Shown: positions 27,008-55,706 of the stretch, piece after piece
How the letters are laid out: every line of letters starts with the position of its first letter
Position numbering within the stretch: position 1 is the first letter of the stretch
Sequence record: MK327931.1
DNA length: 64,000 nucleotides
Origin: Escherichia phage vB_EcoM_G17
Reading direction: 5' to 3' (one strand)
Made by a program: the position numbers and the translations under genes
Notes under the pieces: generated by a model
Databases searched by the model: none
The model's input: the letters and a program-made list of their open reading frames with translations, nothing else
What the model was told of the DNA's origin: nothing

Positions 27008-27505
27008 TTAAGTCACTGCATTATACTTCTCTATAGCATTAGTAATATTTAATATAGCTTCAGGAACCATTTCTTTATTGTATTCACGTTTTAAATTTTC
27101 CATTTTCTTAATAATTTCCAAGAAAAATGGCAAAATACATGAAGTATCTGTAAAATTACATGAGTACAAAGTACTCATTTGAAATAATTCACCTGAATCA
27201 ATATTAAGAGATTTGTATTCCTTAACAATGTTTTCGTTTGTATTGAAAATATGAAATACTGTTCCCATGTGATGAAGATATACACCATTCTCATTTTGAA
27301 TATGGCATGGTGTGATTACAATAGCAGTGTTGTCAATATTATTTACTATTGATAAACGTAGACTATGTAAACCTAAAATAACAGTACAATCACTTGAACT
27401 GCTTTGAATTTGGTCAGCAGTTTGTGTAACACTTGTAATATTTTCCCCATCAAGACAACTCTTGATTTTATCAAATGAATTTTTCATTGATTTAGTTAGA
27501 TACAT
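27008..27505 (-). CDS. FQxS-family paralogue
   Basis: 165 aa; motif 'SGELFQMSTLY'. Confidence 0.55.
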   Translation of the reverse strand: MYLTKSMKNSFDKIKSCLDGENITSVTQTADQIQSSSSDCTVILGLHSLRLSIVNNIDNTAIVITPCHIQNENGVYLHHMGTVFHIFNTNENIVKEYKSLNIDSGELFQMSTLYSCNFTDTSCILPFFLEIIKKMENLKREYNKEMVPEAILNITNAIEKYNAVT

Positions 27506-27909
27506 TTATGAACACCTTCGAAATATTTGATTAATGATTTTATCATATCGCTACTAATGCCATGTAAGTCAACACCTAAACACTCGTATTGAAAAAAATC
27601 AATATCCTCCAGTGTGTTTAGATCAATTTCCACCTTATCATGACCCAACGAATTCATAATAACGTTTTTATCATTAATTGTCAAGAAAGTTTTTTTATCT
27701 GAACCTAAAAAGATTTTTACATGTTTTTTTGGCATTACATCATAAGATAAAGATTGTGAACCATAAATGTATATGCCTTCCATTGAACCAATATCTATAA
27801 AATATAGACGAATCCCTTTGTGGTATTTTGACTCCTTAGTGATCGCCTCTATTAGTTCATCTGTGGTTGTTAACCTTGTTTCTTTCTTCTCTAAATTGCT
27901 CAAATGCAT
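27496..27909 (-). CDS. hypothetical protein, possible divergent FQxS-family member
   Basis: 137 aa; 'DIDFFQYECLG'. Confidence 0.45.
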   Translation of the reverse strand: MHLSNLEKKETRLTTTDELIEAITKESKYHKGIRLYFIDIGSMEGIYIYGSQSLSYDVMPKKHVKIFLGSDKKTFLTINDKNVIMNSLGHDKVEIDLNTLEDIDFFQYECLGVDLHGISSDMIKSLIKYFEGVHKCI

Positions 27910-28330
27910 AAAATAATACCTTGATCATTTGTAATGTTTCTGACATTACATCAGCAGAAAATTGAACATCAGTGTATTTTACCATAGTACTTTGAGTAAA
28001 GAAAGTAGCTTCAATATCTTCAAGGTCAAATGGTTCATCAAATAAATTAGTACTGAACATATCAGTTTTTTTCTTATAAGTCAACATAAACTTAGCACTG
28101 TATCTCAATACAATTTCATCTTTACTTACTAAAATTCGTGCAATGTTCTGTCTACCCAGTGTTGTAATGTTAACATTAAACGTATTCTTTCGTGCCTCAA
28201 CAATATCAACGAAATAACCATCACCTTGGTAAACGTTATGACGAACTTCTAATCCTTGTTGAACTGTATTGAACAGTGCGTCCTGGATAAAATAATTTGC
28301 AGTATCGATGTTTCCTAAAATATCTAACAT
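27857..28330 (-). CDS. FQxS-family paralogue (divergent)
   Basis: 157 aa; 'EATFFTQSTMV'. Confidence 0.5.
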   Translation of the reverse strand: MLDILGNIDTANYFIQDALFNTVQQGLEVRHNVYQGDGYFVDIVEARKNTFNVNITTLGRQNIARILVSKDEIVLRYSAKFMLTYKKKTDMFSTNLFDEPFDLEDIEATFFTQSTMVKYTDVQFSADVMSETLQMIKVLFYAFEQFREERNKVNNHR

Positions 28331-28860
28331 AACTTCTCCTTTATAGCTGTCATATTTAGAAGAAATTCAGTAAGCAATTCCTCCGTAACATGCTCTGTAT
28401 ACCAGAATATCACAATATCTTTTGAAAGTCGTGTATTCATAAAAATATCTACTAACTCTTTGTAGAACTCTAGTGTTTCGAGATTTGTGAGAATTAACGA
28501 GTACTGAAAGAGTAATTCTTCCGTTAGATTAAATTCTGGATAAAGTAAATCATTGAACTCATGTGATGCAGTTTGAACTTTAATTTCTTTGAAGTTATTG
28601 GTTATACAACCGGAATAAATATTTCGGTGCAACTCTCTGTACAACGCAGCATAATCTATGAATTTTGCTTTAGGGTTAAAATCAAGAACACTTTCACCTT
28701 TATATGACAATCGGTGGAACGCCGAGAACATAGTCACTTCCCACGGTTGCTTAATATCTAGCTCAGTAATATCAATATTATTGGACAGAAGAACCGTAAA
28801 AATCTCACCAATCTTTAATAGTAACTTAGTACGTGCCAGTGCTACCATCGGGTCAGTCAT
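28324..28860 (-). CDS. FQxS-family paralogue
   Basis: 178 aa; 'EELLFQYSLIL'. Confidence 0.55.
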   Translation of the reverse strand: MTDPMVALARTKLLLKIGEIFTVLLSNNIDITELDIKQPWEVTMFSAFHRLSYKGESVLDFNPKAKFIDYAALYRELHRNIYSGCITNNFKEIKVQTASHEFNDLLYPEFNLTEELLFQYSLILTNLETLEFYKELVDIFMNTRLSKDIVIFWYTEHVTEELLTEFLLNMTAIKEKLC

Positions 28861-29273
28861 TATACACCTTCATATTCATCAAGAAAATCTTCGATAATCA
28901 TTTCAGCTTCATCCATATGCATAGCATCAACTTCAATGATGCGAACTTTAGATGCATCCCAAATCATAAAGCTAGGAACATTATCAGGCTCGTAGTCATT
29001 TTTGTACTGAACAGCATCATAACCTTGAGCAGTGCAATTCTCAATAAGTGAACGCCACTCATCATCACTGCCTAAATCTTCACACAGAAGCACGTTATCA
29101 ACATCAACTTCTAAGGTATGCAAGTATACTGTACATGCGTCTACTACGTTCAGTGGGCTTCTCAGCTTGCGTAATGCAGCTTCCAAAGCACTGTGTTTAC
29201 CTCCCATATGAAGACCACCATACGGGATATAAAAGTTATCAATTTTTACAGTACTCGCATGATACAGTTTCAT
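28860..29273 (-). CDS. hypothetical protein (137 aa), not a family member
   Basis: Minus-strand ORF starting 'MKLYHAST'; lacks the FQxS motif. Confidence 0.5.
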   Translation of the reverse strand: MKLYHASTVKIDNFYIPYGGLHMGGKHSALEAALRKLRSPLNVVDACTVYLHTLEVDVDNVLLCEDLGSDDEWRSLIENCTAQGYDAVQYKNDYEPDNVPSFMIWDASKVRIIEVDAMHMDEAEMIIEDFLDEYEGV

Positions 29274-29282
29274 ATTTCATTC

Positions 29283-29867: not shown

Positions 29868-30459
29868 CTGGAACCACCATTTCTTGAATGTGCTTACATT
29901 TTATATTTGCCATATTGGTATGTAATATAATGCTGTGTTTACGCAATGATTTTACTTTGTAGCACTCATTGAGTACTGAAATAATTCCCCATAACTCTTC
30001 TACACTAATAGTGATAGGTTCACTTGTACTCAGTTGCATCAGTGCTGCTTGAACATCATCTTTGTTATTAATAGTGAACTGGATTCCTCTTTTGAGAATT
30101 TTAGTTTTTGGATTGTACTCAGCTAATACATCACCTTCTGGATAACCCTCATGAAGTAATAATGTTGTTTCAAAATCACCGCAGTTGAAGTTAATTTCAT
30201 CATAATCAGGTACACAAATGTTCCCTTCCCCGTACTCATTAGGTTCAGATTCTAGTGTTAAAATACGCTGAGTCTCATTGCTCAGGATGATAGAATCATT
30301 CCAGTACTGGGTAGTGAATGCTCTACGTTTCTTTTGAAAGCACATACTCGACATTGAACCATACTTCTTGTATATGGACTTCTTGAACTCAATAGCAGCA
30401 GGAGCCACCTTGATAACTTCACGAATTAAGTCAATAGCTTCTTGATAACTTTTTCTCAT
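29857..30459 (-). CDS. hypothetical protein (200 aa)
   Basis: Minus-strand ORF in the array; motif not evident. Confidence 0.5.
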   Translation of the reverse strand: MRKSYQEAIDLIREVIKVAPAAIEFKKSIYKKYGSMSSMCFQKKRRAFTTQYWNDSIILSNETQRILTLESEPNEYGEGNICVPDYDEINFNCGDFETTLLLHEGYPEGDVLAEYNPKTKILKRGIQFTINNKDDVQAALMQLSTSEPITISVEELWGIISVLNECYKVKSLRKHSIILHTNMANIKCKHIQEMVVPDGL

Positions 30460-31007
30460 TTATCGTATCCATATAAAATATGATCTAGTGTACTTTGTAC
30501 TTCTTCATGAAAGAATGAAGGGTAAACTTGTATCAATTTATCTTTAAGTTCAAGGGAATGGCATAGTTCTAATGTTTTGTAACAATCCTCGTACTGTGCC
30601 AGATCATGTAATGTACTTAACTGAAAATGTTGTTCTTCGGAGTACAATAAATCATAAACCATATTATCGGATAAAAGATTAGATTTGATTGAAGGATCAA
30701 GTACTGTCTGGTGGTGACCAACCCAAAAGATAGCTTTTGAGTTAATGTTATTACAACCCCATCCTTTCCCCATCTTTTGGTGAATAGCAAATACACAGGA
30801 ATCATACAAATTAATGCTCAGACGTTCTTCGTCTGCATGGATAGTTACACCATCAATAGATAGTGTATATTTGAAATCCATAGCCCCCTCACTTCGTGCA
30901 CGAGAACTAAAGACCAGATATCGATGAATTATGGTATTGATTTTATCTGTCCATCCATCAACACATTTGGATGCACATAATGTAAAAAGATCATGATTGT
31001 AGTTCAT
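30456..31007 (-). CDS. FQxS-family paralogue
   Basis: 183 aa; 'EEQHFQLSTLH'. Confidence 0.55.
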   Translation of the reverse strand: MNYNHDLFTLCASKCVDGWTDKINTIIHRYLVFSSRARSEGAMDFKYTLSIDGVTIHADEERLSINLYDSCVFAIHQKMGKGWGCNNINSKAIFWVGHHQTVLDPSIKSNLLSDNMVYDLLYSEEQHFQLSTLHDLAQYEDCYKTLELCHSLELKDKLIQVYPSFFHEEVQSTLDHILYGYDK

Positions 31008-31068: not shown

Positions 31069-31650
31069 TTAATCCATCATAAGTGGGATAATTGCCCATA
31101 TCTTTTTCATAATCATATCTTCAGTAAAAACAAATGTTTTAGGAGCAGTATATGATATTGACACACCAAATGGAAGTTTGATTGCATCATCAATTATATT
31201 ATGAATATCAAACCATGTTTTAACATAATCATACGGTGGAAGTTCATGAATTGTACTTAACTGAAAGTAATTCTCTTCACCAAAATCACTATATTCAATT
31301 TCACAAATTTTAGTGAATTGATGATTCCATTTAGATATAATACTATTTTTATTATTGTACATAGTAGTTCTATGCATAAAACCATTTTTGCTAGTATGAT
31401 TTGATATTACGTTTTCTTCAATGTCAGTATCTATTTTAAAATTCATATCAAAGTTGTAGTACGGACTTGACGATTCTTTGAATTTTAAATGTAAATTGCG
31501 ATTGTTATTAATTTCAATTTCAATACAAAACACATCTGAATCAAAACGATTAAACTTGTAATCGTTATCTTCCGGTAGATTCTGTATTTTTTTCATAATA
31601 CTAAGCATAGGGTGTACTACACTTTTAATAAAATCATTTGTTATTTTCAT
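31069..31650 (-). CDS. FQxS-family paralogue
   Basis: 193 aa; 'EENYFQLSTIH'. Confidence 0.55.
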   Translation of the reverse strand: MKITNDFIKSVVHPMLSIMKKIQNLPEDNDYKFNRFDSDVFCIEIEINNNRNLHLKFKESSSPYYNFDMNFKIDTDIEENVISNHTSKNGFMHRTTMYNNKNSIISKWNHQFTKICEIEYSDFGEENYFQLSTIHELPPYDYVKTWFDIHNIIDDAIKLPFGVSISYTAPKTFVFTEDMIMKKIWAIIPLMMD

Positions 31651-32143
31651 AGTATTCCTTTAGAACTTTATATGATTCAACAATACTATCTTGTGTATAA
31701 TTTGAACTATATACAACAGCACTTGTTTTAGTTGACCATAGATATGACATAAAGGTTATAACACTACTACATGGACTTAATGTATTGTTTTGAAATTCAA
31801 TTTCTTCAATGTTATCAGTACTGGTATAGATGAATTGGAAAGTACCCATTGATTTATTGGACAGCGATACTATAGTAGAATCCGTACCAGGACTATACAT
31901 GAATGTCTCATTACTAATTGAACTATCATTAGTATATGATGGTTTGGGAATATAAATCAAACGCATGATATCGCGTTCAAGACCTGACTTATTACTTTCC
32001 ACCAAAGAAATCATATCTATATTTGATATATGTTCAACACTGACATGGAACTTTTTGTCGAGAATCACATCTCCATGAGAATTTTTATATGAAGACAAAA
32101 TCTCATACATCTCAACTAATTCGCGTGCATTTAATAAACTCAT
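31634..32143 (-). CDS. hypothetical protein, possible FQxS-family member
   Basis: 169 aa; 'EEIEFQNNTLS'. Confidence 0.45.
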   Translation of the reverse strand: MSLLNARELVEMYEILSSYKNSHGDVILDKKFHVSVEHISNIDMISLVESNKSGLERDIMRLIYIPKPSYTNDSSISNETFMYSPGTDSTIVSLSNKSMGTFQFIYTSTDNIEEIEFQNNTLSPCSSVITFMSYLWSTKTSAVVYSSNYTQDSIVESYKVLKEYYENNK

Positions 32144-32568
32144 GTTTTGTCTCTTAATGAAAGAATATCCTTAGTATAAACTGAAACAGAAATATGATTA
32201 TATTTCATCATTAATTTATACACATAAGAAGCTAGTACTAAATCGTAAATTAATTTAGTATTATACAGTACTTGGTATTGTAACGCAAGTGAATCAATAT
32301 CATCTTTACTTTCAATATCCAGAAATGTACCGAAAAATGTAGTACCGTAGAGATGAAAAGTGGAATTAATGCAATCAATGCATTCATTGTCCAATAGAGT
32401 AGATGCTGATGCCCTCGGTGAATCCCAAATAGTCACTGCGTGTATGCCCTCAACGAACAAATCTATCCATATTTTGTGTCGTTGTCTTTTTTTTGTTTTA
32501 TAATTTTCTGGATTTGAAAGTGTAGTTTCAATTATATCCCATATGTACAAACAATCATCTCTTGTCAT
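32140..32568 (-). CDS. hypothetical protein (142 aa)
   Basis: Minus-strand ORF in the array; motif weak ('LALQYQVLY'). Confidence 0.45.
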   Translation of the reverse strand: MTRDDCLYIWDIIETTLSNPENYKTKKRQRHKIWIDLFVEGIHAVTIWDSPRASASTLLDNECIDCINSTFHLYGTTFFGTFLDIESKDDIDSLALQYQVLYNTKLIYDLVLASYVYKLMMKYNHISVSVYTKDILSLRDKT

Positions 32569-33146
32569 TATATAACCTTATCCATTGCTGCATTTAATGC
32601 TTTTAAACGATCTACATTCAAATTATTGAAGATGTACGTTCCTAACATGTGGAAATCGAACTGGTTCTTTTTGTATTCATGATAAATTAAACTACAAAAA
32701 ATAATAGTACTAAGAACCTCTTCAGGTATAACAGTGCTCATCTGGAACAGTTCTTCTTCAACTGTACTTGAATCTGGATTGATAGATTTTAACACATACT
32801 CTTCATCACCGAATAGTACTTTAATATTATATAAAACACCAACAGTACTAATATGGAATGGGTGGTGTGAAAAACTTCCATCATCCTTAATTTGTATATC
32901 GGTTCTAATCTCACACTCTTCATTACTTTTACTTTTATTTTTTACAATACAAATATTTCTGGCCCCAGAAATAGTAAGAATACCGTGGTCGTAATATTCA
33001 TTTGACCAACATTTGGATGAAATTGATACATCACGGATGAGATATTGTTTTTCAATTTCTTTCGCACTACCAACAATTGATAGCATTTTTTTACTGATAT
33101 CATATAATAACTGATGGCGTTCTGTCATATAACTATAAGCGTTCAT
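32568..33146 (-). CDS. FQxS-family paralogue
   Basis: 192 aa; 'EEELFQMSTVI'. Confidence 0.55.
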   Translation of the reverse strand: MNAYSYMTERHQLLYDISKKMLSIVGSAKEIEKQYLIRDVSISSKCWSNEYYDHGILTISGARNICIVKNKSKSNEECEIRTDIQIKDDGSFSHHPFHISTVGVLYNIKVLFGDEEYVLKSINPDSSTVEEELFQMSTVIPEEVLSTIIFCSLIYHEYKKNQFDFHMLGTYIFNNLNVDRLKALNAAMDKVI

Positions 33147-33717
33147 ATTTTTCCTTAACAGATTCTATATTTTGAAGTAGTGTATTCAGAACATCAGTCT
33201 TGCAATTGATAAAATCATTGTACATAACTAGTTCACCACAATCAAGAATTTTTGCAGTATCGTAACAAAGCATTAAGTACTCGAATTCTTTGTAATTGTC
33301 CAACAAGGATTTCTGGAAAATGAATGCATCTCGAATATCTTCACTTTGGTCTAATTCTGGTGGAACATCCAACCCAATAAATCCATCATCTTCACTGAAA
33401 TTAGATTCTACAATTTTATTCATTTTTTCATGTAATGCATTCGCAAATACCATATTAGAAGAAATAGAACCAATACGTTCACGATTTCTGGATGTGCGAA
33501 TGTACATAGTAATCGTATCCCATGAACTTTTAATTTTTTTAGAAAATTCATAAGTTTTATATACATCCAACTGAACTGATCCAAAACGATGTTTGGATTT
33601 GTTTTCAATTTTCAGTCGATAATCATCAAATTCAACAATTTCTGTAATGTCATGAATCTCTGAAAGTTCTGCAATGTCATGCATGAGTCTCAAAATTTTA
33701 GTTCTGATATGGTTCAT
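33133..33717 (-). CDS. FQxS-family paralogue
   Basis: 194 aa; 'DAFIFQKSLLD'. Confidence 0.55.
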   Translation of the reverse strand: MNHIRTKILRLMHDIAELSEIHDITEIVEFDDYRLKIENKSKHRFGSVQLDVYKTYEFSKKIKSSWDTITMYIRTSRNRERIGSISSNMVFANALHEKMNKIVESNFSEDDGFIGLDVPPELDQSEDIRDAFIFQKSLLDNYKEFEYLMLCYDTAKILDCGELVMYNDFINCKTDVLNTLLQNIESVKEKYERL

Positions 33718-34292: not shown

Positions 34293-34344
34293 CTCTAGTT
34301 AAAATCAAGTATAACACACCTGAATGCTCTTGTAAAGCCATAAA

Positions 34345-34367: not shown

Positions 34368-34934
34368 TTATTTTGGTAAAACACTGTCGATGTACGCTAG
34401 AACCTCATCTCGAAGGTACGTTCCATCTATAGTTAGGTAATAGTTCATGGGAATATCACTCCCAACCTTCTCATAAATTTTCATACATGATATCACATCT
34501 TCATCACAAATGGTACTCAATTGAAAAATAACTTCATCGGTTAACGGTACGATATCATGTTTAGATAGGGGATTTGTATTTTCATTCAACACAATATTAA
34601 TCAAGTTAGGAGTATTCTTTGACGAAATATAACGATGCTTACTACGAATTACCATTCTCGATAGTGAAATACTGGAACTCCATCTTGGATCAACATCTTC
34701 ATATGATAACGATATTAACATCTCGTGAAAATCTTGAAATTTCATTGACGCATAATATGTTTTATCCTCACCGTACATACCAAATGATTTAAATTCAATA
34801 TCCCCCACTTTGTATGTATCGACATCATTATTTGAGAACTTTATTAAACTATTAATTAGTCTAATTAGAATATCATCTTTATCCATTCTTAAATAACTCC
34901 AAGTGCATGTCGTATAAATCTCTGAAGTCTTCAT
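34368..34934 (-). CDS. FQxS-family paralogue
   Basis: 188 aa; 'DEVIFQLSTIC'. Confidence 0.55.
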   Translation of the reverse strand: MKTSEIYTTCTWSYLRMDKDDILIRLINSLIKFSNNDVDTYKVGDIEFKSFGMYGEDKTYYASMKFQDFHEMLISLSYEDVDPRWSSSISLSRMVIRSKHRYISSKNTPNLINIVLNENTNPLSKHDIVPLTDEVIFQLSTICDEDVISCMKIYEKVGSDIPMNYYLTIDGTYLRDEVLAYIDSVLPK

Positions 34935-46862: not shown

Positions 46863-47060
46863 CTTAATCTCTACTATAATTAATAAGGTAAACTCCAATA
46901 TAAGGAGAACGTTCGGCGGCGGGGTATTTTTTGTTTCAAGAAACATGAACTGTACTCTGAAAAACACAATATAAAACTTTATATTAAACATATACCTTAG
47001 CATGTTTTTCAGCGGAAATTTTTTTGACCCCCCCCTGCGGCCTGTCAAAATGAAACGTCT
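46863..47060. other. ~200-bp non-coding island with G/C-rich tracts
   Basis: 'GAACGTTCGGCGGCGGGG' and 'TTGACCCCCCCCTGCGGCC' in an AT-rich context; no credible ORF. Confidence 0.35.
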
Positions 47061-48287: not shown

Positions 48288-48570
48288 ATATATTTTGTCT
48301 GAACAAAGGAACTAATTGAACTAAACTCGTTTGCATAATAATATGCATATGTACATTGTCATATGCCGTTTCGTATTGGAATCGTGCAGCTTCATCTTCT
48401 ATGAAATTCGGAACTTGGACTGGATTCTCAAAATTTGTCCTTGTACTGAACTGTACATCATTGTCCTGTACCTTAATACCATATGAATTATCATTGTTAT
48501 CAACTACATCAAATTCAATTAAACTACCATCTTTACTGACGTTTACTATATAAACCGAAAATCGACTCAT
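48226..48570 (-). CDS. FQxS-family paralogue (divergent)
   Basis: 114 aa; 'EAARFQYETAY'. Confidence 0.5.
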   Translation of the reverse strand: MSRFSVYIVNVSKDGSLIEFDVVDNNDNSYGIKVQDNDVQFSTRTNFENPVQVPNFIEDEAARFQYETAYDNVHMHIIMQTSLVQLVPLFRQNIYVHEVSINGIQSSVLFGTNM

Positions 48571-49082
48571 AAACCTATTTCCTCTAAATCTTTGACAAAT
48601 GTATCATAATCCGATAATGACAAAAATATGTCTGTACTGATGTTTTGACGTAATGTATTAAACAAATTATGTACCTGTAATAAATCAGGTGCATAAATCA
48701 GGGATTGCTGGAAATACGATTCTTCTGTATCTAATATATCCCTGCACTCAATTTCACGAACTCGTTGGTATATTGAATTTAATAATACATTTTCATCTTT
48801 GAGCATTGGAAGGTATCGGATGTACATGTGCTCCATCAACTCATCCTGGATTGAACCCCTGAACTGCAACACGTATTCAAAACACATCACTACATCTTGT
48901 AGGTAATTGGCACTGTAATTATTGCTGTAAACAATCTTATGACTTCTGAACTCATCATCATTTCTGAACCAATTGTCACCTACTTTGGTGTACTTATGAC
49001 TAAGCTTCCCATCCTCCAACGCTCGAATGAACTTCATAATGTTAATTGCAAAATCATATGAATGATGCTTGTGTTGATGCAT
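48567..49082 (-). CDS. FQxS-family paralogue
   Basis: 171 aa; 'DTEESYFQQSLIY'. Confidence 0.55.
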   Translation of the reverse strand: MHQHKHHSYDFAINIMKFIRALEDGKLSHKYTKVGDNWFRNDDEFRSHKIVYSNNYSANYLQDVVMCFEYVLQFRGSIQDELMEHMYIRYLPMLKDENVLLNSIYQRVREIECRDILDTEESYFQQSLIYAPDLLQVHNLFNTLRQNISTDIFLSLSDYDTFVKDLEEIGL

Positions 49083-49286: not shown

Positions 49287-49910
49287 CTATATATCCAACC
49301 CTTTTACAACATCTACGAAATGTTCAAACACTTCTTTTGAAAAATAACCACCTTCACAAAAAAGCATACTAAACGGTGGCAGCATGTCCGATAACTCTTT
49401 AGCTAAATTGATTTCTGCTCTTAACTCTTGAACATCAATGATATCATGTACTAAAGATAATTGAAACATGAATGCATCTACATCTTCATTCATTTCTGAA
49501 TTGTAATATAACTCTTCAGGGAATTTGTCGGTTTCGTAATAATAAAAAACTTTATTGTTGAACACACCACTAATAGGAACATCATTTTCATCTTTCTTTG
49601 AAATGTTTGTTTCCCATGACTCTATATTATTAGGAACAAAAAAATCATAGGCTGATTTTGAACCCTGTACTGAATCCAACTTTATTCCATAATATTCCGT
49701 ATCCATGTATTTCTGCTGTAATGTAATACCACGTGTACTGACATTCACTTGGAATATATCATCTTTATCTGGAACACTAAATGGAATACATAACACTGAA
49801 TTCTCAGGGTATTTGGCAATGAATGCATCCAGCACTTTATTAAGCACCGGAATGGCAATTTTACTGTACTGCATCAAATCATACATTTTAATTCTGGTCA
49901 TATCATTCAC
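49287..49910 (-). CDS. FQxS-family paralogue
   Basis: 207 aa; 'VDAFMFQLSLVHD'. Confidence 0.55.
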   Translation of the reverse strand: MNDMTRIKMYDLMQYSKIAIPVLNKVLDAFIAKYPENSVLCIPFSVPDKDDIFQVNVSTRGITLQQKYMDTEYYGIKLDSVQGSKSAYDFFVPNNIESWETNISKKDENDVPISGVFNNKVFYYYETDKFPEELYYNSEMNEDVDAFMFQLSLVHDIIDVQELRAEINLAKELSDMLPPFSMLFCEGGYFSKEVFEHFVDVVKGLDI

Positions 49911-50442
49911 CTGTGTATGTTTTCACCCTTAGCGATTCAAAATCCCATACATCACTGATTGTACCATTGTGCCTGTAATCATAATATTCTACTAATACAT
50001 TATACAATAACTTCAACGATACAAATTCATGATTCCACGGAGCTTTATTGTCATGAACACATTTGGTGATATAAGGTATAATATATAAACTAAACAACAC
50101 TAATGGTGAATGTATACATTGCATTTGAAAATATTCTTCTTCTTGCATACAATGTTCAGGAATAATTAGATCATAATGTGTCTCAAATAAATGTAAACCT
50201 ATTGTGGTTTTTTTCGTATCACATGCGTACCATATTGTACTATCCGAAATAAATGGAATGATACCATTATTGTTTGCAATGTACATCATATGGTAAGAGC
50301 GATTTGTCTTGTTAAATATCTCGATACTTTCGATATTACTACAAATCATGTATTCAAGGCAATCAATGATCTTATCTTTAAATGTACCAATTTCATTGAA
50401 TGACATTGCTTTCTGTACTTTTGATACTGTTGTACTGCTCAT
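49903..50442 (-). CDS. FQxS-family paralogue
   Basis: 179 aa; 'QEEEYFQMQCIH'. Confidence 0.5.
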   Translation of the reverse strand: MSSTTVSKVQKAMSFNEIGTFKDKIIDCLEYMICSNIESIEIFNKTNRSYHMMYIANNNGIIPFISDSTIWYACDTKKTTIGLHLFETHYDLIIPEHCMQEEEYFQMQCIHSPLVLFSLYIIPYITKCVHDNKAPWNHEFVSLKLLYNVLVEYYDYRHNGTISDVWDFESLRVKTYTGE

Positions 50443-50981
50443 ATGTTCTCCTTAAAAAAATCCAAATACTCTTCATTGAAAGCATATGTATCATCTTTTA
50501 TGTTATGCACCACATAATCATAAAGAGCTATGAATGCAGGGATTATGATCTTACATGATTTATTATTGTATTTGTACTGCTCCAAATCAACGGTGTTCAA
50601 TTTAGCAATAAGCATAGCAGCAAAGATATCTTCATGGCGGTGTACTGTGCTGTACTGAAAATACTCATCCTCTCCAATATCGGGATGATATAACGGTATA
50701 ACCAAATTATTACGAATTGACATTTTATATTTTTGTAATGCAGCTAAATGCATGAACCACAATCTATCTTCATGGAAAGATGGAAAAATAATTTTGTCTG
50801 TGCTAATAAAAATTTCTTCATTTCGATTATTTGTCACAAGAGGTGCATACATTTTAATTTTTGCAGATTTAATAATTAAATTAAAAATATAATGAATCTT
50901 ATGAACTGCACTTGATGCATCTTCGTATGTACTTGGGATTATGAAACTCACTATATGTTCTCCTTTAAAATGAATACACAT
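50439..50981 (-). CDS. FQxS-family paralogue
   Basis: 180 aa; 'GEDEYFQYSTVH'. Confidence 0.55.
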   Translation of the reverse strand: MCIHFKGEHIVSFIIPSTYEDASSAVHKIHYIFNLIIKSAKIKMYAPLVTNNRNEEIFISTDKIIFPSFHEDRLWFMHLAALQKYKMSIRNNLVIPLYHPDIGEDEYFQYSTVHRHEDIFAAMLIAKLNTVDLEQYKYNNKSCKIIIPAFIALYDYVVHNIKDDTYAFNEEYLDFFKENI

Positions 50982-51011
50982 GATAACAGCTTTGGTCTTC
51001 TATGTCAATAC

Positions 51012-51056
51012 CAAAACGAAAAAAGCCCATATCTTACGATACAGGCGTTATGGGCA
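51012..51056 (-). terminator. rho-independent terminator overlapping the stop of gene 51034..51540
   Basis: Stem GCCCATA / TATGGGC (51025-51031 / 51049-51055), long loop; T-run follows on minus strand (plus 51017-51024). Confidence 0.45.
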
Positions 51057-51540
51057 TGTTGATTTGAATTTCATTGTACAAATCATCAATATATAGACAT
51101 GAAAAAAACACACTATCTTGTACTATATTGTTGTGATAAAGCATTTTAAATACTACATAAAAAAATAAATCAATATCATCGTGGACTAAATTCTGCTGGA
51201 ACCACCACTCGTCTGTTAAATCTTGTGCATTAAAATCATCAGGAACTTCAATGAACGACATATCACAATCTTCTTTGTACTCAAACCACATGTCGTCATT
51301 CGGATAACGTTCATGCTTCTCTGGGTAACAATTGCTGGGATTAAATGTTAAAATATTAAACCCCGTAGAGCAACGTTCTTTATTTAAAAATGTATTATTC
51401 CATACCTGATATTTTTCACCAACATCAAGCTCTTCTGTTACTGATTTTATTGCACATAATGTACTGTATATTGTTTCTATCTTGTGAACATATTTAAATG
51501 CAGCATCTAAGCTGAACTCTAAATCATACATGTACTGCAT
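51034..51540 (-). CDS. FQxS-family paralogue
   Basis: 168 aa; 'TDEWWFQQNLVHD'. Confidence 0.55.
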   Translation of the reverse strand: MQYMYDLEFSLDAAFKYVHKIETIYSTLCAIKSVTEELDVGEKYQVWNNTFLNKERCSTGFNILTFNPSNCYPEKHERYPNDDMWFEYKEDCDMSFIEVPDDFNAQDLTDEWWFQQNLVHDDIDLFFYVVFKMLYHNNIVQDSVFFSCLYIDDLYNEIQINMPITPVS

Positions 51541-51860
51541 AAAATTACCTCAACTAAAGCAAGAACTGTATTAAATTCAACTATACTTGTAATTCCTTGA
51601 AGGTACATGTACTTTGCTACTACATATTTCTGTACTAAATTATAATTATTAAATTCCTCAAAATTGTAATTTAGAACAAAATCTGTACTCAAAAATATCT
51701 TATGCATCTCTAATGCACTTTGATAATACGCGTACAACTCACGGATATCAATACTGGTTAAATTATATTGTTCATATCTATGATACGGGATGGCTTCAAT
51801 TTCAATACTATAAAACCATTCTCTTAACTTATTAATATCAAATGTATTATTCAGCTTCAT
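51519..51860 (-). CDS. hypothetical protein (113 aa)
   Basis: Minus-strand ORF in the array; motif not evident. Confidence 0.45.
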   Translation of the reverse strand: MKLNNTFDINKLREWFYSIEIEAIPYHRYEQYNLTSIDIRELYAYYQSALEMHKIFLSTDFVLNYNFEEFNNYNLVQKYVVAKYMYLQGITSIVEFNTVLALVEVILCSTCMI

Positions 51861-52413
51861 AACTCAATACCTCCATTAAACACTCATACACACCATCAAT
51901 CGCATAAGCACAAAAATTGAAATTAATTTTGTGATTCTTGTGTAATGGACTATTGTGTACTGTACTCATTATGACATTATAAAATAACAAACGCACTGGT
52001 ACAAGCATTGAACCTTGGAAAAATTCTTCCTCTGATTTATATGTATTGTACTCTATTGTTTTGTTCGTTTCTTTATCATATGTTACCATTACTAATGGGG
52101 AATTTTTATTATACCATGCGTACTCTAAATCATTCTTTCCAATAACAGCACCAGGTGCGAAATCCAAAAGACCAATAACACTACGGGCATTTGGTATATC
52201 TGGTGTATTGAATCGTTTATCAAAATGACTCGTGCACGCAATATATGTATTGTACTTCGATGGAATAATACCAATACATTTGTGGAAATGACGCTTGTGA
52301 TATTTCTGGGCATTATATAAGGATGCAACAATACAAGCTAACTTTTGTCCCATAAGGATTGCATTAGCGTAGGTGTACTGAATTTCATTGCTGGTACGGT
52401 ACTTCGAGGTCAT
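51847..52413 (-). CDS. FQxS-family paralogue
   Basis: 188 aa; 'SEEEFFQGSMLV'. Confidence 0.55.
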   Translation of the reverse strand: MTSKYRTSNEIQYTYANAILMGQKLACIVASLYNAQKYHKRHFHKCIGIIPSKYNTYIACTSHFDKRFNTPDIPNARSVIGLLDFAPGAVIGKNDLEYAWYNKNSPLVMVTYDKETNKTIEYNTYKSEEEFFQGSMLVPVRLLFYNVIMSTVHNSPLHKNHKINFNFCAYAIDGVYECLMEVLSYEAE

Positions 52414-52696
52414 AATATTTCCTTTGCCATATCATGGGCTTAAAATCAATAACAGCTTTCTGTATCTTTTTTAATAATAAGACATCATAACCACCCGTGT
52501 CAATCACTAATTGCTGTTGGAACAATTCTTCATCGGATAATGTATTGAAATCTACAAAATAATCTGTAACTATCGAATCATTTAAATGTGCCATGTACCA
52601 ACCTGAACTTCTTGAATAAATCAAATTCCACCCATCGTCATCATCTTCTAATTCAACATAAATCATATCTGGGGTATACATCATTTTATACTTCAT
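52385..52696 (-). CDS. FQxS-family paralogue
   Basis: 103 aa; 'LSDEELFQQQLVID'. Confidence 0.55.
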   Translation of the reverse strand: MKYKMMYTPDMIYVELEDDDDGWNLIYSRSSGWYMAHLNDSIVTDYFVDFNTLSDEELFQQQLVIDTGGYDVLLLKKIQKAVIDFKPMIWQRKYYDLEVPYQQ

Positions 52697-53234
52697 AACT
52701 ATATCCTTGCATTAATAAATCATAAACTACATGGACTAAATTTAATTGAATATAAAATTTTAAACCTTTAATTAATGAATTCAAATGCATTGTACTGAAT
52801 AACATTAGATACATCATCTCATGCGGTTTTGTGATTAATGATTTTTGAAATACGCCAGCTTCATCATAAGGGTCTATGAACTGAAATTTGTCTTCATCAT
52901 AATTTGTATTGGAATGCTGATATATAAAATAATCATCATTGGTATTGTACCACAAATATCCTTCGAATCCTGTACTAACATCTTTGGTCAATGGGGATGC
53001 TGATACTGGATTTGAACTGATTAATGCACCTACATCAACAATCCCCGTTGTATCATATTCGATTTCAACATCAATATCAATGTATTTCCTTGCGATATCT
53101 GCGTTTATGGACAAATATAAACTACCACCTGTCCTCTGACTCAGGATTCCATCTATATGCGATATAGGATGGTTGTTATTGAGGATAAGCATTATTGTAC
53201 TTATCTTGTGTGCTAATAACTCTATCTCATTCAT
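52686..53234 (-). CDS. FQxS-family paralogue
   Basis: 182 aa; 'DEAGVFQKSLIT'. Confidence 0.5.
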   Translation of the reverse strand: MNEIELLAHKISTIMLILNNNHPISHIDGILSQRTGGSLYLSINADIARKYIDIDVEIEYDTTGIVDVGALISSNPVSASPLTKDVSTGFEGYLWYNTNDDYFIYQHSNTNYDEDKFQFIDPYDEAGVFQKSLITKPHEMMYLMLFSTMHLNSLIKGLKFYIQLNLVHVVYDLLMQGYSYEV

Positions 53235-54207: not shown

Positions 54208-54395
54208 ACTATCTCCGTTCGCAACGAATTTATATAATAATGAACAAATTGTTCTTGTGAACGTGTTCCAAGAAAAATAAACATATCAAACTCTGTTGTT
54301 TTTAAATTCAATGCATCTTTTGTAAAATTCCTGTTGAATTCCCTGTACTTTTGGGTCTTCCATTCTTGATTAATTGTCTTGTATATCGATTTCAA
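54177..54395 (-). CDS. LGTNYQE-family small protein
   Basis: 72 aa; 'IFLGTRSQEQ'. Confidence 0.5.
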   Translation of the reverse strand: MKSIYKTINQEWKTQKYREFNRNFTKDALNLKTTEFDMFIFLGTRSQEQFVHYYINSLRTEIVCKTQGIIKR

Positions 54396-54696
54396 TGATT
54401 CTCCCTGATGTACCTTGTATTAGCTTATCATACATATCGAGCATCACTTTTTGAATACTAATTAGTACTGGCATCGTGCAAATATCAATGTCGTATACTA
54501 AGCTGTACTGGAATAATTCATCTTCCTGCATTTGTACTAAATTAGGTAAAGGATAATTGTCTGCCTCTTCATCCTGGTACTTGAAATGCATAACACCATC
54601 CTTTTTGTACAAAAGAATGTCAATATCACCTAACTCATCAGCATAACCAAAAATACATATACTCGATGTTTTTGCTATATTAAATTTCATCTCCAC
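54370..54696 (-). CDS. FQxS-family paralogue
   Basis: 108 aa; 'MQEDELFQYSLVYD'. Confidence 0.55.
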   Translation of the reverse strand: MEMKFNIAKTSSICIFGYADELGDIDILLYKKDGVMHFKYQDEEADNYPLPNLVQMQEDELFQYSLVYDIDICTMPVLISIQKVMLDMYDKLIQGTSGRIIEIDIQDN

Positions 54697-54932
54697 CTCT
54701 CTCCGTCAGCACAAGAGTACTGGTACGTTGTCGTTAGGGTAGGGACCATGTTTGTAATGGGCATATTATTAACAATAACGGTAACAGGCATAAGAATCGT
54801 CTCTACTCTACTCTGTCCTGTCCTTGTACAATTCATCTTCTGCATTTCATCTGAATCCATGAAATACAATACAAATGGTGCAATCCCAAGAACAATACAC
54901 AAGACGATAAGGAAATTTAAAAAATTTAACAT
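54687..54932 (-). CDS. small membrane protein
   Basis: 81 aa; N-terminal hydrophobic helix 'FLNFLIVLCIVLGIAPFVLYF'. Confidence 0.45.
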   Translation of the reverse strand: MLNFLNFLIVLCIVLGIAPFVLYFMDSDEMQKMNCTRTGQSRVETILMPVTVIVNNMPITNMVPTLTTTYQYSCADGERWR

Positions 54933-54991
54933 AATTTTTACCCTATGATTAACGTTAGTGTACTATATCAGTAATGAAAAGTACTGTCAAG

Positions 54992-55396
54992 CTAGTATTG
55001 CACTGTTCTAATGAAAGTACCTTTACTCATGGATTTAAGCTTATGAACCTCTTCCTGCATACCCTTAATTAACCCTAAAGGTATAGGTAAATCATGTACT
55101 AAGCTGTACTGAAAGTATTCTTCTTCAGATAAAGTACTAACATCTGGAACGCCAATTTTAGTTATATAATCTTGATGTGTTGACCAATAAATTATATCTT
55201 CAGTACTATTGTACTCCCCATATACTGAACAATATTGATGAATATCTTTCCTGTACCCTTGAGCAATAAAGAACTTATCTAATGCATTACCAGCATTAAT
55301 AGAATTTACTTCGATTGTCACAGTACTTGAGCTTGTATAACTCTTAATATTATCAGTACTCTTAATACTCAACGATGTGTTCTTCATAATCACCAT
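54992..55396 (-). CDS. FQxS-family paralogue
   Basis: 134 aa; 'LSEEEYFQYSLVHD'. Confidence 0.55.
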   Translation of the reverse strand: MVIMKNTSLSIKSTDNIKSYTSSSTVTIEVNSINAGNALDKFFIAQGYRKDIHQYCSVYGEYNSTEDIIYWSTHQDYITKIGVPDVSTLSEEEYFQYSLVHDLPIPLGLIKGMQEEVHKLKSMSKGTFIRTVQY

Positions 55397-55706
55397 TAGG
55401 CTCCTGTTTAGATTCTTTCATTAGTACTATCATCTTATGTACTAATGGCATAGGGAACTCTAAATCCCATACTAATGATTCCTGGAAGTATTCCTCTGGT
55501 GATAAAGTACTTAAATCTTTAATATCAACGTGCTTGTATATTTTATTTTCGTAATTAACAAATGATATATATAAATCACTAACATAAGAATCATAGGTAA
55601 TTGTGAATGGCTTACCCTTGTAATCCATTACATCTCTACATAGACTACTTTTGATATATGTATGTTCAAATGATTTATATACCTTGAGTTGTATATTAGT
55701 TTTCAT
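55362..55706 (-). CDS. FQxS-family paralogue
   Basis: 114 aa; 'LSPEEYFQESLVWD'. Confidence 0.55.
   Translation of the reverse strand: MKTNIQLKVYKSFEHTYIKSSLCRDVMDYKGKPFTITYDSYVSDLYISFVNYENKIYKHVDIKDLSTLSPEEYFQESLVWDLEFPMPLVHKMIVLMKESKQEPNGDYEEHIVEY

What the first reader, a model, noticed from the sequence alone, without database searches (positions are those of the whole stretch)
27008..55706. Hyper-expanded tandem array of ~50 paralogues sharing an 'EE-x-F-Q-x-S-(T/L)-V' motif
From 27.0 to 55.7 kb almost every minus-strand ORF (100-200 aa) carries the same short signature about 40-60 residues from its C-terminus: one or two acidic residues, an aromatic/hydrophobic residue, then F-Q-x-S-(T/L)-(V/I/L), often followed by an aromatic and D. 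Examples are SEEYYFQNSTVYD, EEMYFQGSCIHD, EDELFQESLVWD, EEQHFQLSTLHD and LSEEEYFQYSLVHD. I count about 47 clear members plus several divergent ones and one distant copy at 14.7 kb. N-terminal halves are highly variable while the motif and a following amphipathic stretch are retained. Nearly half of this window is devoted to one lineage-specific family, which is the pattern expected of a diversifying host-interaction or counter-defence repertoire. The motif also happens to resemble the E-x-x-Y-F-Q|S/G recognition sites of 3C/NIa-type proteases (TEV: ENLYFQ|S); that is only a resemblance, and it may instead be a structural core.
Basis: partly seen in the sequence, partly recalled or inferred. 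Interest (0 to 1): 0.9.

Follow-up and report, generated by a model that had tools for sequence, protein, structure and literature searches.

The report
Forty-seven-gene early protein family in jumbo phage
Nearly half of this stretch of a 350-kb E. coli jumbo phage (Sharanji, a RaK2/121Q-type phage) is a real tandem array of 47 related small genes of an undescribed protein family, whose shared 'EE..FQ.S' signature is best read as a folding core, not a protease site, and whose job is untested but most plausibly early host manipulation.

Summary
The window is Escherichia phage Sharanji (Asteriusvirus). Forty-seven minus-strand ORFs of 103-229 aa carry the motif: 45 lie in 27008-55706 and two at 14656-15920. 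Shuffled proteins give about 0.1 such ORFs.

- **One family.** A single seed recruits 38-42 of them. F and Q are invariant.
- **Motif.** AlphaFold places it in a confident, N-capped helix that turns into a second helix lying on a beta-sheet. That is a structural core, not an exposed cleavage site.
- **Age.** RaK2 (about 34 copies), Munch (about 23) and other Asteriusvirus phages hold colinear arrays, and about half of best matches are cross-genus.
- **Selection and variability.** Selection is purifying (dN/dS 0.27, motif 0.14). Alleles are nevertheless hypervariable and mosaic: median 39.5% identity to phage A4 versus 76% for neighbouring genes, with presence/absence differences.
- **Expression setting.** The genes are tightly packed in units headed by sigma70-like promoters, just inside the terminal repeat. 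They are absent from the phAPEC6 virion proteome.

Most likely this is an early, non-structural set of host-interaction proteins; that function is inferred, not shown.

The parts
55362..55706 (-). FQxS member, short type, 114 aa, SPEEYFQESLVWD; first of the array in transcription order; AF2 model 2
   Evidence: HMM E 1.4e-14; AF2 pLDDT 71, five strands + motif helix 70-79 + helix 86-98 + strand
54992..55396 (-). FQxS member, short, 134 aa, SEEEYFQYSLVHD
   Evidence: HMM E 4.2e-12; absent from 4 of 7 Asteriusvirus genomes compared
54370..54696 (-). FQxS member, short, 108 aa, QEDELFQYSLVYD
   Evidence: HMM E 1.2e-15; best match is RaK2 18912-19247
52686..53234 (-). FQxS member, long, 182 aa, DEAGVFQKSLITK
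   Evidence: HMM E 1.3e-21
52385..52696 (-). FQxS member, short, 103 aa, SDEELFQQQLVID
   Evidence: HMM E 7.2e-12; allele 100% in PBECO4 but 54% in 121Q
51847..52413 (-). FQxS member, long, 188 aa, SEEEFFQGSMLVP
   Evidence: HMM E 2.8e-22
51034..51540 (-). FQxS member, long, 168 aa, TDEWWFQQNLVHD
   Evidence: HMM E 1.6e-17
50439..50981 (-). FQxS member, long, 180 aa, GEDEYFQYSTVHR
   Evidence: HMM E 3.9e-13
49903..50442 (-). FQxS member, long, 179 aa, QEEEYFQMQCIHS
   Evidence: HMM E 2.8e-18
49287..49910 (-). FQxS member, long, 207 aa, VDAFMFQLSLVHD
   Evidence: HMM E 8.4e-5
48567..49082 (-). FQxS member, long, 171 aa, TEESYFQQSLIYA
   Evidence: HMM E 2.5e-24
48226..48570 (-). FQxS member, short, 114 aa, DEAARFQYETAYD
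   Evidence: HMM E 1.8e-9
47664..48287 (-). FQxS member, long, 207 aa, SDESLFQYSTMYD
   Evidence: HMM E 7e-14
46485..47048 (-). FQxS member, 187 aa as the longest ORF (relatives 109-160 aa), DDAALFQAALVFD
   Evidence: HMM E 2e-17
45956..46327 (-). FQxS member, short, 123 aa, SEEEFFQESTVWN
   Evidence: HMM E 5.6e-12; absent from 4 of 7 genomes compared
45600..45956 (-). FQxS member, short, 118 aa, DTAELFQESLVFD
   Evidence: HMM E 1.6e-16
45244..45603 (-). FQxS member, short, 119 aa, DDGELFQAALVFD
   Evidence: HMM E 1.7e-10
44743..45234 (-). FQxS member, long, 163 aa, SEEYYFQQSTVYD; part of the recent five-gene tandem block
   Evidence: HMM E 6.5e-30; blastp 1e-60 to 43343-43831; no orthologue in vB_Ec-M-J
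44271..44741 (-). FQxS member, long, 156 aa, SEEYYFQQNTIYE; recent block
   Evidence: HMM E 4e-28
43831..44274 (-). FQxS member, long, 147 aa, TEEYYFQQSLIFN; recent block
   Evidence: HMM E 3e-30
43343..43831 (-). FQxS member, long, 162 aa, SEEYYFQNSTLYN; recent block
   Evidence: HMM E 3.3e-31
42913..43365 (-). FQxS member, long, 150 aa, SEEYYFQNSTVYD; recent block; jackhmmer seed
   Evidence: HMM E 5.5e-33; seed
42602..42916 (-). FQxS member, short, 104 aa, HESFIFQESLVWD
   Evidence: HMM E 1.4e-4
41848..42297 (-). FQxS member, long, 149 aa, TEEGYFQGSTVYE (literal ExxYxQG)
   Evidence: HMM E 1.8e-27
41315..41851 (-). FQxS member (divergent), 178 aa, FDEQCFQLSCTDP
   Evidence: Motif only in the HMM test; hhalign probability 40% versus <1% for controls; RaK2 orthologue at 4e-15
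40400..40960 (-). FQxS member, long, 186 aa, TEENIFQNSVLHD
   Evidence: HMM E 3.3e-11
39439..39801 (-). FQxS member, short, 120 aa, QEDELFQESLVWD
   Evidence: HMM E 8.3e-14
39072..39515 (-). FQxS member, 147 aa, GEEEMFQYSTVFN
   Evidence: HMM E 2.6e-15; absent from 4 of 7 genomes compared
38752..39093 (-). FQxS member, short, 113 aa, DEGELFQESLVFN
   Evidence: HMM E 9.1e-14
38208..38792 (-). FQxS member, long, 194 aa, NQEYYFQLSLLFP
   Evidence: HMM E 1.4e-32
37672..38148 (-). FQxS member, long, 158 aa, TEEEFFQYSTVYP; AF2 model 1
   Evidence: AF2 pLDDT 75, pTM 0.73; motif helix 104-111 and helix 116-131 have the highest confidence
37181..37675 (-). FQxS member, long, 164 aa, SEEMYFQGSCIHD (literal ExxYxQG)
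   Evidence: HMM E 3.7e-29; RaK2 orthologue at 3.5e-14
36853..37215 (-). FQxS member, short, 120 aa, SEEELFQQSTIST
   Evidence: HMM E 6.7e-15
36456..36869 (-). FQxS member, short, 137 aa, TPDELFQYSLVFP
   Evidence: HMM E 9.2e-10
35965..36468 (-). FQxS member, long, 167 aa, SEESYFQNSLIYT
   Evidence: HMM E 1.8e-26; allele 99-100% in 121Q and ECO103 but 62-66% in PBECO4, UE-S1, MJ and TH47
34879..35442 (-). FQxS member, long, 187 aa, LESAMFQLSLIHN
   Evidence: HMM E 7.9e-22; RaK2 orthologue at 8e-16
34368..34934 (-). FQxS member, long, 188 aa, TDEVIFQLSTICD
   Evidence: HMM E 6.6e-16
33133..33717 (-). FQxS member (divergent), 194 aa, RDAFIFQKSLLDN
   Evidence: Motif; hhalign probability 8% versus <1% for controls
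32568..33146 (-). FQxS member, long, 192 aa, VEEELFQMSTVIP
   Evidence: HMM E 2.2e-14
31634..32143 (-). FQxS member (divergent), 169 aa, IEEIEFQNNTLSP
   Evidence: Motif; hhalign 12%; RaK2 orthologue at 1e-12
31069..31650 (-). FQxS member, long, 193 aa, GEENYFQLSTIHE
   Evidence: HMM E 1.9e-10
30456..31007 (-). FQxS member, long, 183 aa, SEEQHFQLSTLHD
   Evidence: HMM E 1e-7
28324..28860 (-). FQxS member, long, 178 aa, TEELLFQYSLILT
   Evidence: HMM E 8.5e-12
27496..27909 (-). Weak candidate member, 137 aa, EDIDFFQYECLGV
   Evidence: Motif only; neither the HMM nor hhalign supports it
27008..27505 (-). FQxS member, 165 aa, DSGELFQMSTLYS; last of the array
   Evidence: HMM E 1.4e-5; RaK2 orthologue at 3.8e-13, colinear last position; Munch 35703-36188
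15342..15920 (-). Outlying FQxS member, 192 aa, GLPEHFQISTLYD
   Evidence: hhalign 60%; scored 4e-23 against the seed-set profile of which it was itself a seed
14656..15345 (-).
   Evidence: HMM E 3.6e-8
38182..38211 (-). Perfect sigma70-type promoter TTGACA-N18-TATAAT (with TG) in the gap upstream of 37672-38148
54962..54990 (-). Sigma70-like promoter (11/12, TG) in the gap 54933-54991
50980..51008 (-). Sigma70-like promoter (11/12, TG) in the gap 50982-51033, next to a terminator-like hairpin at 51025-51046
34308..34336 (-). Sigma70-like promoter (10/12, TG) in the gap 34293-34367, next to a terminator-like hairpin at 34350-34369

Best explanation
The array encodes 47 paralogous small (103-229 aa), mostly acidic, non-virion alpha/beta proteins of a family confined to RaK2-like jumbo phages.

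Motif (predicted). The shared signature is a folding core.
- An N-cap residue (S/T/D/N) and two glutamates start a short helix.
- An aromatic residue and the invariant Phe point into the core.
- The invariant Gln and the conserved Ser sit at the end of that helix.
- L/T, V/I/L, an aromatic residue and D/N lead into a second, amphipathic helix.
- Both helices lie on an antiparallel beta-sheet.
- Short members consist of this core. Long members add an N-terminal and a C-terminal helix.

Genomic setting (shown). The genes sit in tightly packed, overlapping units headed by host sigma70-type promoters. They lie directly downstream of the roughly 20-kb terminal repeat and of a second, 31-copy family.

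Timing (inferred). They are probably transcribed early by host RNA polymerase.

Evolution (shown). Each paralogue is an old, separately retained gene. Order is colinear with RaK2 and Munch, and selection is purifying. Alleles are nonetheless highly divergent and mosaically exchanged between related phages, with some presence/absence.

Function (inferred, not shown). Most likely this is a battery of early host-interaction proteins. Each would bind a different host or competitor target through its variable sheet and loop surfaces, for host takeover, counter-defence or host range.
For: - **Family and motif.**
- **Selection acts on the protein, not the DNA.** Synonymous codons are used freely at the motif: F is TTC 22 / TTT 21, Q is CAG 26 / CAA 17, and Ser uses both AGY (24) and TCN (13).
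- **Structure.** Two AF2 models (pLDDT 75 and 71) share the sheet plus motif-helix plus second-helix architecture, and the motif region has the highest confidence. In the logo, position -5 is S/T/D/N in 85% of sequences and -4/-3 are E in 78%/75% with some Pro at -4, which is the classic make-up of a helix N-terminus.
- **No known fold or domain.**
- **Ancient and retained.** RaK2 has about 34 copies and Munch about 23. 37 of 80 best hits are cross-genus and colinear.
- **Purifying selection.** dN/dS is 0.27 for the family against 0.13 for downstream genes, and 0.14 in the motif.
- **Hypervariable, mosaic alleles.**
- **Not in the virion.** The phAPEC6 virion proteome lists nothing between gp347 and gp549. 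gp421c-gp445c are family genes, and the whole array extrapolates to roughly gp405-470.
- **Early-type context.**
  - 74 of 94 gene junctions overlap, and 5 of 12 gaps carry sigma70 matches of at least 10/12 on the coding strand (p=0.0035).
  - Perfect sigma70 consensus occurs 3 times against 0.21 expected, always on the coding strand.
  - TATAAATA, the T4-type late promoter proposed for this clade, occurs 0 times against 14.4 expected.
  - The terminal repeat is adjacent.
  - Terminal-repeat genes are early in the relative PA5oct.
  - The CBB authors infer an early host-takeover region of short hypothetical ORFs next to the terminal repeat.
Against: - No expression, interaction or phenotype data exist for any member.
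- Similarity outside the motif is weak, so the claim of a common fold rests on two medium-confidence models.
- The absolute invariance of F and Q across about 250 sequences that are otherwise about 15% identical is stronger than a plain core position usually shows. It could mark a shared binding site.
- No positive selection is detected, which an arms-race repertoire might be expected to show.
- Overall promoter-like counts do not exceed shuffles.
Confidence: 0.5

Rival explanations
1. Constant-handle adaptor library. The invariant helix (EE-x-aromatic-F-Q-x-S) would be a docking surface for one shared partner, such as the phage ClpP-type protease system, host RNA polymerase, the sliding clamp or a chaperone. 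The variable sheet would pick different targets, so the family delivers many targets to one effector.
For: - F and Q are invariant, S is 85% conserved, and the motif is under the strongest constraint (dN/dS 0.14) while everything else drifts.
- A bona fide Clp protease gene (PF00574, E 4e-41) lies on the same strand at 1120-1815, outside the head module.
- 'Q-x-S-L-hydrophobic-aromatic' loosely recalls the clamp-binding QL[SD]LF. That resemblance is recalled from my own knowledge, not tested.
Against: - The pattern of N-cap, buried aromatics and small Ser is what a folding nucleus looks like.
- The position after Q is hydrophobic in only about half the sequences.
- The motif is predicted to lie inside a folded helix, not in a flexible tail.
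- No partner has been identified.
Confidence: 0.12
2. Phage-internal function. The paralogues would be subunits or chaperones of a non-virion intracellular assembly (a replication or assembly factory, or a genome-handling scaffold) rather than host-directed proteins. Their number would reflect hetero-oligomeric complexity.
For: - Each paralogue is retained as an orthologue across genera in fixed order under purifying selection.
- The shared helix pair could be an oligomerisation interface.
Against: - Core machinery would not show 25-45% identity between congeneric phages, allele swapping and presence/absence of individual members.
- The location is among promoter-driven accessory genes next to the terminal repeat.
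Confidence: 0.15
3. Weakly selected duplicates. The array would be largely dispensable genomic ballast that a very large capsid tolerates, and the motif merely what is left of common ancestry.
For: - dN/dS is twice that of neighbouring enzymes.
- Several members are missing in some genomes.
- Possible degenerate copies lie in the array (29283-29867 and 32140-32568; hhalign 7-10%).
Against: - dN/dS of 0.27 is far below 1.
- ORFs are intact and overlapping in every genome examined.
- Colinear orthologues persist across three genus-level lineages.
- Ser is kept through both codon families.
Confidence: 0.1
4. Protease-processing signal. ExxYFQ|x would be cleaved by a 3C/NIa-like or other glutamine-specific protease, releasing a C-terminal peptide of about 50 residues from each member.
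For: - The P6 Glu, P3 aromatic, P2 Phe and P1 Gln pattern matches.
- Three members read literally ExxYFQG or ExxFFQG: 37181-37675, 41848-42297 and 51847-52413.
Against: - P1' is variable (Y30, L19, E16, Q9, N9 %) and the conserved Ser is at P2'.
- The motif is in the most confident, helical part of both models.
- The only protease seen in the window is ClpP, and the Sharanji paper mentions only a prohead protease.
- No 3C-type protease is known to me in tailed phages.
Confidence: 0.03

Closest known systems
Terminal multigene families of large eukaryotic DNA viruses (ASFV MGF360/505, poxvirus host-range families); comparison drawn from my own knowledge
   Same: Tens of tandem paralogues sit next to the terminal repeat. 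Copy number and alleles vary between isolates. The proteins are non-structural.
   Different: These are eukaryotic viruses with unrelated folds. Their early expression and roles in host range and immune evasion are demonstrated experimentally, whereas nothing is tested here. Here the paralogues are also unusually stable as orthologues across genera.
Lineage-specific expansion of about 35 zinc-ribbon proteins in Bacillus phage G (PMC7824862)
   Same: A single small-protein family is expanded to tens of copies within one jumbo phage lineage.
   Different: That domain is a recognisable zinc ribbon with a proposed DNA-binding or transcription-factor role. This family has no recognisable domain, no Cys/His ligand pattern, and is shared by several genera.
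RaK2 'paralogues' (about 10% of gene products; PMC3622015) and the PHROG families these ORFs match, e.g. 9317, 12674, 13866, 15629, 19795, all 'unknown function'
   Same: These are the same proteins. The literature notes paralogy in general terms, and PHROGs holds the members.
   Different: No paper I found names or describes the family, its motif, its size or its fold. PHROGs splits it into many separate families.
TEV/NIa protease site ENLYFQ|S/G
   Same: Acidic residue at P6, aromatic at P3, Phe at P2 and Gln at P1. A few members match literally.
   Different: P1' is not conserved and the Ser is at P2'. The motif is predicted helical and buried. No cognate protease is seen.
Sheet-plus-helices platform folds (MHC-I-like platform including viral UL18/2L, p32/Mam33, polo box)
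   Same: The general two-layer architecture: an antiparallel sheet with helices on one face. These folds commonly serve as binding platforms.
Early/pre-early regions in or beside long terminal repeats (T5 first-step-transfer DNA, from my own knowledge; PA5oct terminal-repeat genes; CBB early region)
   Same: Many short ORFs of unknown function lie next to the terminal repeat and are read from host-type promoters.
   Different: Those regions are collections of unrelated ORFs, not one 47-member family.

Membership tests
3C/NIa (TEV-type) protease cleavage site | Glu at P6, aromatic at P3, Gln at P1 | tested here: met
   Logo over 244 sequences: -4 is E in 78%, -1 is Y/L/F in 75%, and F and Q are invariant in the 244 sequences anchored on FQ (244 of the 247 the profile recruited).
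3C/NIa (TEV-type) protease cleavage site | Small residue (S/G/A) at P1' | tested here: not met
   The position after Q is Y30, L19, E16, Q9, N9 %. The conserved Ser (85%) is one residue further on, at P2'.
3C/NIa (TEV-type) protease cleavage site | Site lies in an exposed, extended linker | tested here: not met
   By prediction only. The motif is helical (residues 104-111 and 70-79) and lies in the highest-pLDDT part of both AF2 models.
3C/NIa (TEV-type) protease cleavage site | Cognate chymotrypsin-fold cysteine protease encoded by the virus | tested here: inconclusive
   The only protease domain found among the window ORFs scanned is ClpP. The Sharanji paper mentions only a prohead protease. 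The whole 350-kb genome was not scanned.
Any curated protein family (Pfam-A, NCBIfam) or solved structure by sequence | Significant profile match | tested here: not met
   Pfam: no hit above cut-off for 10 members. NCBIfam: 48 members, only isolated chance hits. PDB profile search: best E 0.69.
Terminal multigene family of a large DNA virus (as a kind) | Tandem paralogue array adjacent to the terminal repeat | tested here: met
   The terminal repeat is annotated in vB_Ec-M-J, followed by the small-ORF family and then the FQxS array, all on one strand. The layout is the same in the window and in Sharanji to its right.
Terminal multigene family of a large DNA virus (as a kind) | Copy-number and allele variation between isolates | tested here: met
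   Identity matrix over 7 Asteriusvirus genomes: abrupt allele switches and missing members. Median identity to A4 is 39.5% against 76% for downstream genes.
Terminal multigene family of a large DNA virus (as a kind) | Early expression | tested here: inconclusive
   Sigma70-type promoters are enriched in gaps, the late-type octamer is absent, and there is analogy to PA5oct and CBB. No transcript data exist for this phage.
Terminal multigene family of a large DNA virus (as a kind) | Role in host range or immune evasion | not testable with these tools
   Needs genetics and infection assays.
Virion or internal head proteins | Detected in the purified-virion proteome | tested here: not met
   The 62-protein phAPEC6 virion list has no entry between gp347 and gp549. 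gp421c-gp445c are family genes, and the whole array extrapolates to about gp405-470.
Beta-clamp-binding motif QL[SD]LF | Q, hydrophobic, S/D, L, F pentapeptide in a flexible region | tested here: not met
   The second position is hydrophobic in only about half the sequences. The fifth position is V/I/L, with the aromatic one residue later. The motif is predicted to lie in a folded helix. The consensus itself is recalled from my own knowledge.

The most novel reading that the evidence does not exclude
The invariant helix would be a common docking handle, and the family a library of adaptors that bring many different host proteins to one effector. One candidate effector is the phage's own ClpP-type protease encoded on the same strand, which would amount to phage-directed targeted degradation.
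Probability: 0.08. Interest if true: 0.85.

Novelty: new variant of a known kind. Interest (0 to 1): 0.62.

Why it matters
RaK2/121Q-type jumbo phages are candidates for therapy against E. coli, Klebsiella and Salmonella, and more than 80% of their genes have no known function. This work makes several things concrete and testable.

- **One family, not dozens of orphans.** About 8% of the genome (29 kb of 350 kb) is one undescribed protein family with its own fold, rather than dozens of unrelated orphans. Together with the neighbouring 31-copy family, two families fill about 35 kb.
- **An unusual evolutionary regime.** The paralogues are ancient and individually retained, yet their alleles are swapped like cassettes between related phages.
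- **A defined target set.** It gives a set of genes for deletion, toxicity and interaction screens.

If the proteins turn out to be host-takeover or counter-defence factors, the array would be a phage counterpart of the terminal multigene families of poxviruses and ASFV. It could also be a source of new inhibitors of bacterial proteins.

Tried and rejected
- **Motif masking.** The seed then recruits only its 4 closest paralogues, so family membership leans heavily on the motif block. I kept the single-family reading because profile coverage, the two models and cross-genus orthology agree.
- **Single-sequence and word-indexed searches.** These returned only orthologues. The exhaustive profile search was needed.
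- **afdb50 fold library.** Unavailable.
- **Testing seven motif-less ORFs inside the array as degenerate members with hhalign.** Only 29283-29867 and 32140-32568 rise slightly above the controls (7-10% against <1%). The others are left unassigned.
- **Nucleotide-level explanations (recombination site or RNA motif).** Rejected, because synonymous codons vary freely.
- **Positive selection.** Pairwise and minimum-spanning-tree dN/dS, split by structural region, show none.
- **Charge.** The family is acidic (median pI 4.9), but only slightly more so than other window ORFs (5.3). That is not enough to argue for DNA mimicry.
- **Literature.** I found no description of the family.

Full report
**Source.** The window is Escherichia phage Sharanji (OR545507.1; Asteriusvirus, the 121Q/PBECO4 group of RaK2-like jumbo myoviruses). 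Window 1-12000 matches it at 100%. Window 36000-46449 matches record 339630-350079, and window 46373-64000 matches record 1-17628. The window therefore runs across the arbitrary start of the deposited record. That record's first and last 77 bases coincide.

**Observation.**
- All genes in the region are on the minus strand.
- A strict motif regex hits 39 of 151 non-overlapping ORFs. Shuffled proteins give 0.1 on average.
- With a looser anchor, 47 ORFs carry '[acidic]..FQ': 45 within 27008-55706 and two at 14656-15920.
- From one seed, jackhmmer recruits 38 ORFs. On a pooled database it recruits 42, none on the other strand or in other frames.
- F and Q are invariant in the 48-sequence alignment A1.
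- The logo over 244 family sequences is as follows:
  - position -5: T/S/D/N in 85%
  - -4: E 78%
  - -3: E 75%
  - -1: Y/L/F
  - F and Q: invariant
  - +3: S 85%
  - +4: L or T
  - +5: V/I/L
  - +6: aromatic or His
  - +7: D/N
- Masking the motif leaves only the seed's four closest paralogues detectable, so the rest of the sequence is very divergent.
- Even so, the profile aligns over most of its length (at least 110 of 144 positions) in about 20 long members.
- There are two subtypes: 33 'long' members (147-229 aa) and 14 'short' ones (103-137 aa).

**Protein-level or DNA-level conservation.** Synonymous codons are used freely at F, Q and E. Ser uses both the AGY and TCN codon families. Selection therefore acts on the protein.

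**Known families.**
- Pfam-A, NCBIfam and a PDB profile search give nothing.
- PHROGs holds the members, but splits them over many 'unknown function' families.
- An exhaustive profile search of 1.84 billion representative proteins finds 159 clusters, all 65-348 aa. 156 of the 157 sequences then held (this search's hits plus the orthologues) carry the motif.
- The named members come from RaK2, A4, JNE01, EJP2, SD-1_S14 and phage genomes filed as E. coli assemblies.
- 87 of about 149 clusters are under 40% identical to the Sharanji, vB_Ec-M-J or RaK2 copies.

**Structure.**
- The long member 37672-38148 gives an AF2 model with pLDDT 75 and pTM 0.73. It has an N-terminal helix, a seven-strand meander, the motif helix (104-111), a turn, a helix (116-131), a strand and a C-terminal helix. 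Confidence peaks at 88-95 across the motif and the following helix.
- The short member 55362-55706 gives pLDDT 71. It has five strands, the motif helix (70-79), a helix (86-98) and a final strand.
- The common core is therefore a sheet carrying two helices.
- The residues at -5 to -3 (S/T/D, then E or P, then E) are what helix N-termini typically carry. This point rests on established knowledge of helix capping.
- BFVD returns only family members.
- I could not inspect coordinates, so burial of individual side chains is inferred from helical periodicity, not measured.

**Genomic setting and expression.**
- In vB_Ec-M-J the annotated 21.5-kb direct terminal repeat is followed, on one strand, by a run of roughly 70-aa ORFs and then by the FQxS array.
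- Termini and repeats of about 20 kb are experimentally supported for fEgEco12 and reported for Sharanji.
- In the window, 74 of 94 gene junctions overlap. Of 12 gaps of 30 nt or more, 5 hold sigma70 matches of at least 10/12 on the coding strand (binomial p=0.0035). Two of these sit beside terminator-like hairpins.
- The perfect consensus TTGACA-N16-18-TATAAT occurs three times against 0.21 expected, always on the coding strand.
- The T4-type late octamer TATAAATA is absent from both strands of all 64 kb, against 14.4 ± 4.1 expected. A similar motif is proposed as the late promoter in CBB and GAP32.
- In PA5oct, a relative, terminal-repeat genes are early and depend on host RNA polymerase.
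- No family member appears in the phAPEC6 virion proteome.
- Early, non-structural expression is thus well motivated but not shown.

**Evolution.**
- RaK2 (Alcyoneusvirus) has 25 profile hits and about 34 motif-bearing ORFs in the syntenic position.
- Salmonella phage Munch has about 23, A4 has 38, and vB_Ec-M-J has at least 38.
- In a Sharanji-RaK2 comparison, 37 of 80 proteins have their best match in the other genome, and these pairs are colinear. The expansion therefore predates the split of these genera, and individual paralogues persist.
- Only 42913-45234 is a recent tandem block. It has five copies here and four in vB_Ec-M-J.
- Pairwise dN/dS against vB_Ec-M-J has a median of 0.26, against 0.13 for downstream genes.
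- On minimum-spanning-tree branches over eight genomes, dN/dS is as follows:

| Gene set or region | dN/dS (95% CI where computed) |
|---|---|
| FQxS family, whole | 0.27 (0.24-0.30) |
| Downstream genes | 0.13 (0.11-0.17) |
| Motif | 0.14 |
| Second helix | 0.22 |
| N-terminal helix | 0.27 |
| Sheet | 0.29 |
| C-terminal tail | 0.30 |

- Between congeneric phages the alleles are nevertheless extremely different and mosaic. Identity to A4 is bimodal (about 25-45% or 77-93%) with a median of 39.5%, against 76% for downstream genes.
- Single genes switch between near identity and about 55-65% across genomes, and several members are missing in some genomes.

**Interpretation.**
- The motif is best explained as the folding nucleus of a new small alpha/beta domain.
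- The array is best explained as an old, individually maintained, recombinationally shuffled set of early accessory proteins.
- Host takeover, counter-defence or host range is the most economical function given position, promoters, non-virion status and variability. No step of that function is demonstrated.
- The protease-site reading fails on P1', on predicted conformation and on the lack of a cognate enzyme.
- A shared-partner 'handle' model is not excluded, and is the most interesting alternative.

**Literature.** The RaK2 paper notes that about 10% of its gene products are paralogues. CBB lists 22 paralogous ORFs. A comparative survey reports a roughly 35-copy zinc-ribbon expansion in phage G. 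No paper I could search describes this family or its motif.

Noticed in passing
55696-62082, plus 40950-41337 and 53941-54395: A second, separate tandem family: 31 ORFs of 63-96 aa sharing 'L-G-T-N/D-x-Q-E...Y-I..L'. It lies between the FQxS array and the terminal repeat, and four copies are interspersed in the FQxS array. Only non-significant Pfam hits (E>0.01, below cut-off); PHROG 4148, unknown function. dN/dS is 0.37, the highest of the gene classes. It coincides with a strong AT-skew shift (-0.22).
   Followed up: partly
whole window, both strands: The T4-type late-promoter octamer TATAAATA is completely absent: 0 occurrences against 14.4 ± 4.1 expected from dinucleotide shuffles. This suggests purging of late promoters from this 64-kb region.
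   Followed up: partly
46373-46449: The deposited Sharanji record starts and ends inside the array. Its first and last 77 bases are the same sequence, which looks like an assembler k-mer overlap from circularisation rather than a physical end. The physical end and the terminal repeat lie to the right of the window.
   Followed up: partly
28860-29273: A non-family gene embedded in the array (137 aa, starts MKLYHASTVKIDNFY...). It is 91-100% identical in all seven Asteriusvirus genomes, including A4, and has a homologue in Munch, which makes it by far the most conserved gene of the array. No Pfam hit; PHROG 11632, unknown function.
   Followed up: partly
18528-19937: A third small paralogue cluster: five tandem ORFs of about 90-103 aa that link to each other by blastp.
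   Followed up: no
1120-1815; 2682-3485; 7045-7803: A bona fide ClpP-family protease (PF00574, E 4e-41) outside the head-morphogenesis module, and two calcineurin-like phosphoesterases, all on the same strand downstream of the array. Relatives annotate DNA ligase, RNA ligase and polynucleotide kinase here.
   Followed up: partly
L006 25130-26542 (phage A4 gene A4_379): In phage A4 a 470-aa ORF annotated 'methyl-accepting chemotaxis protein' sits inside the array where Sharanji has ordinary members. It could be an insertion or a fusion.
   Followed up: no
L007 23189-37432 (Sharanji 40817-55060): Beyond the terminal-repeat-like region, on the opposite strand, lies another run of about 12 similar-sized (about 380 aa) ORFs, one annotated as an RCC1-repeat protein. 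phAPEC6 gp003-010, listed as virion 'DNA condensation' proteins, may be the counterparts; this was not checked. It may be a further paralogue family.
   Followed up: no
21338-21366, 38182-38211, 63906-63933: Three perfect sigma70 consensus promoters (TTGACA-N16-18-TATAAT), all on the coding strand, against 0.21 expected.
   Followed up: partly
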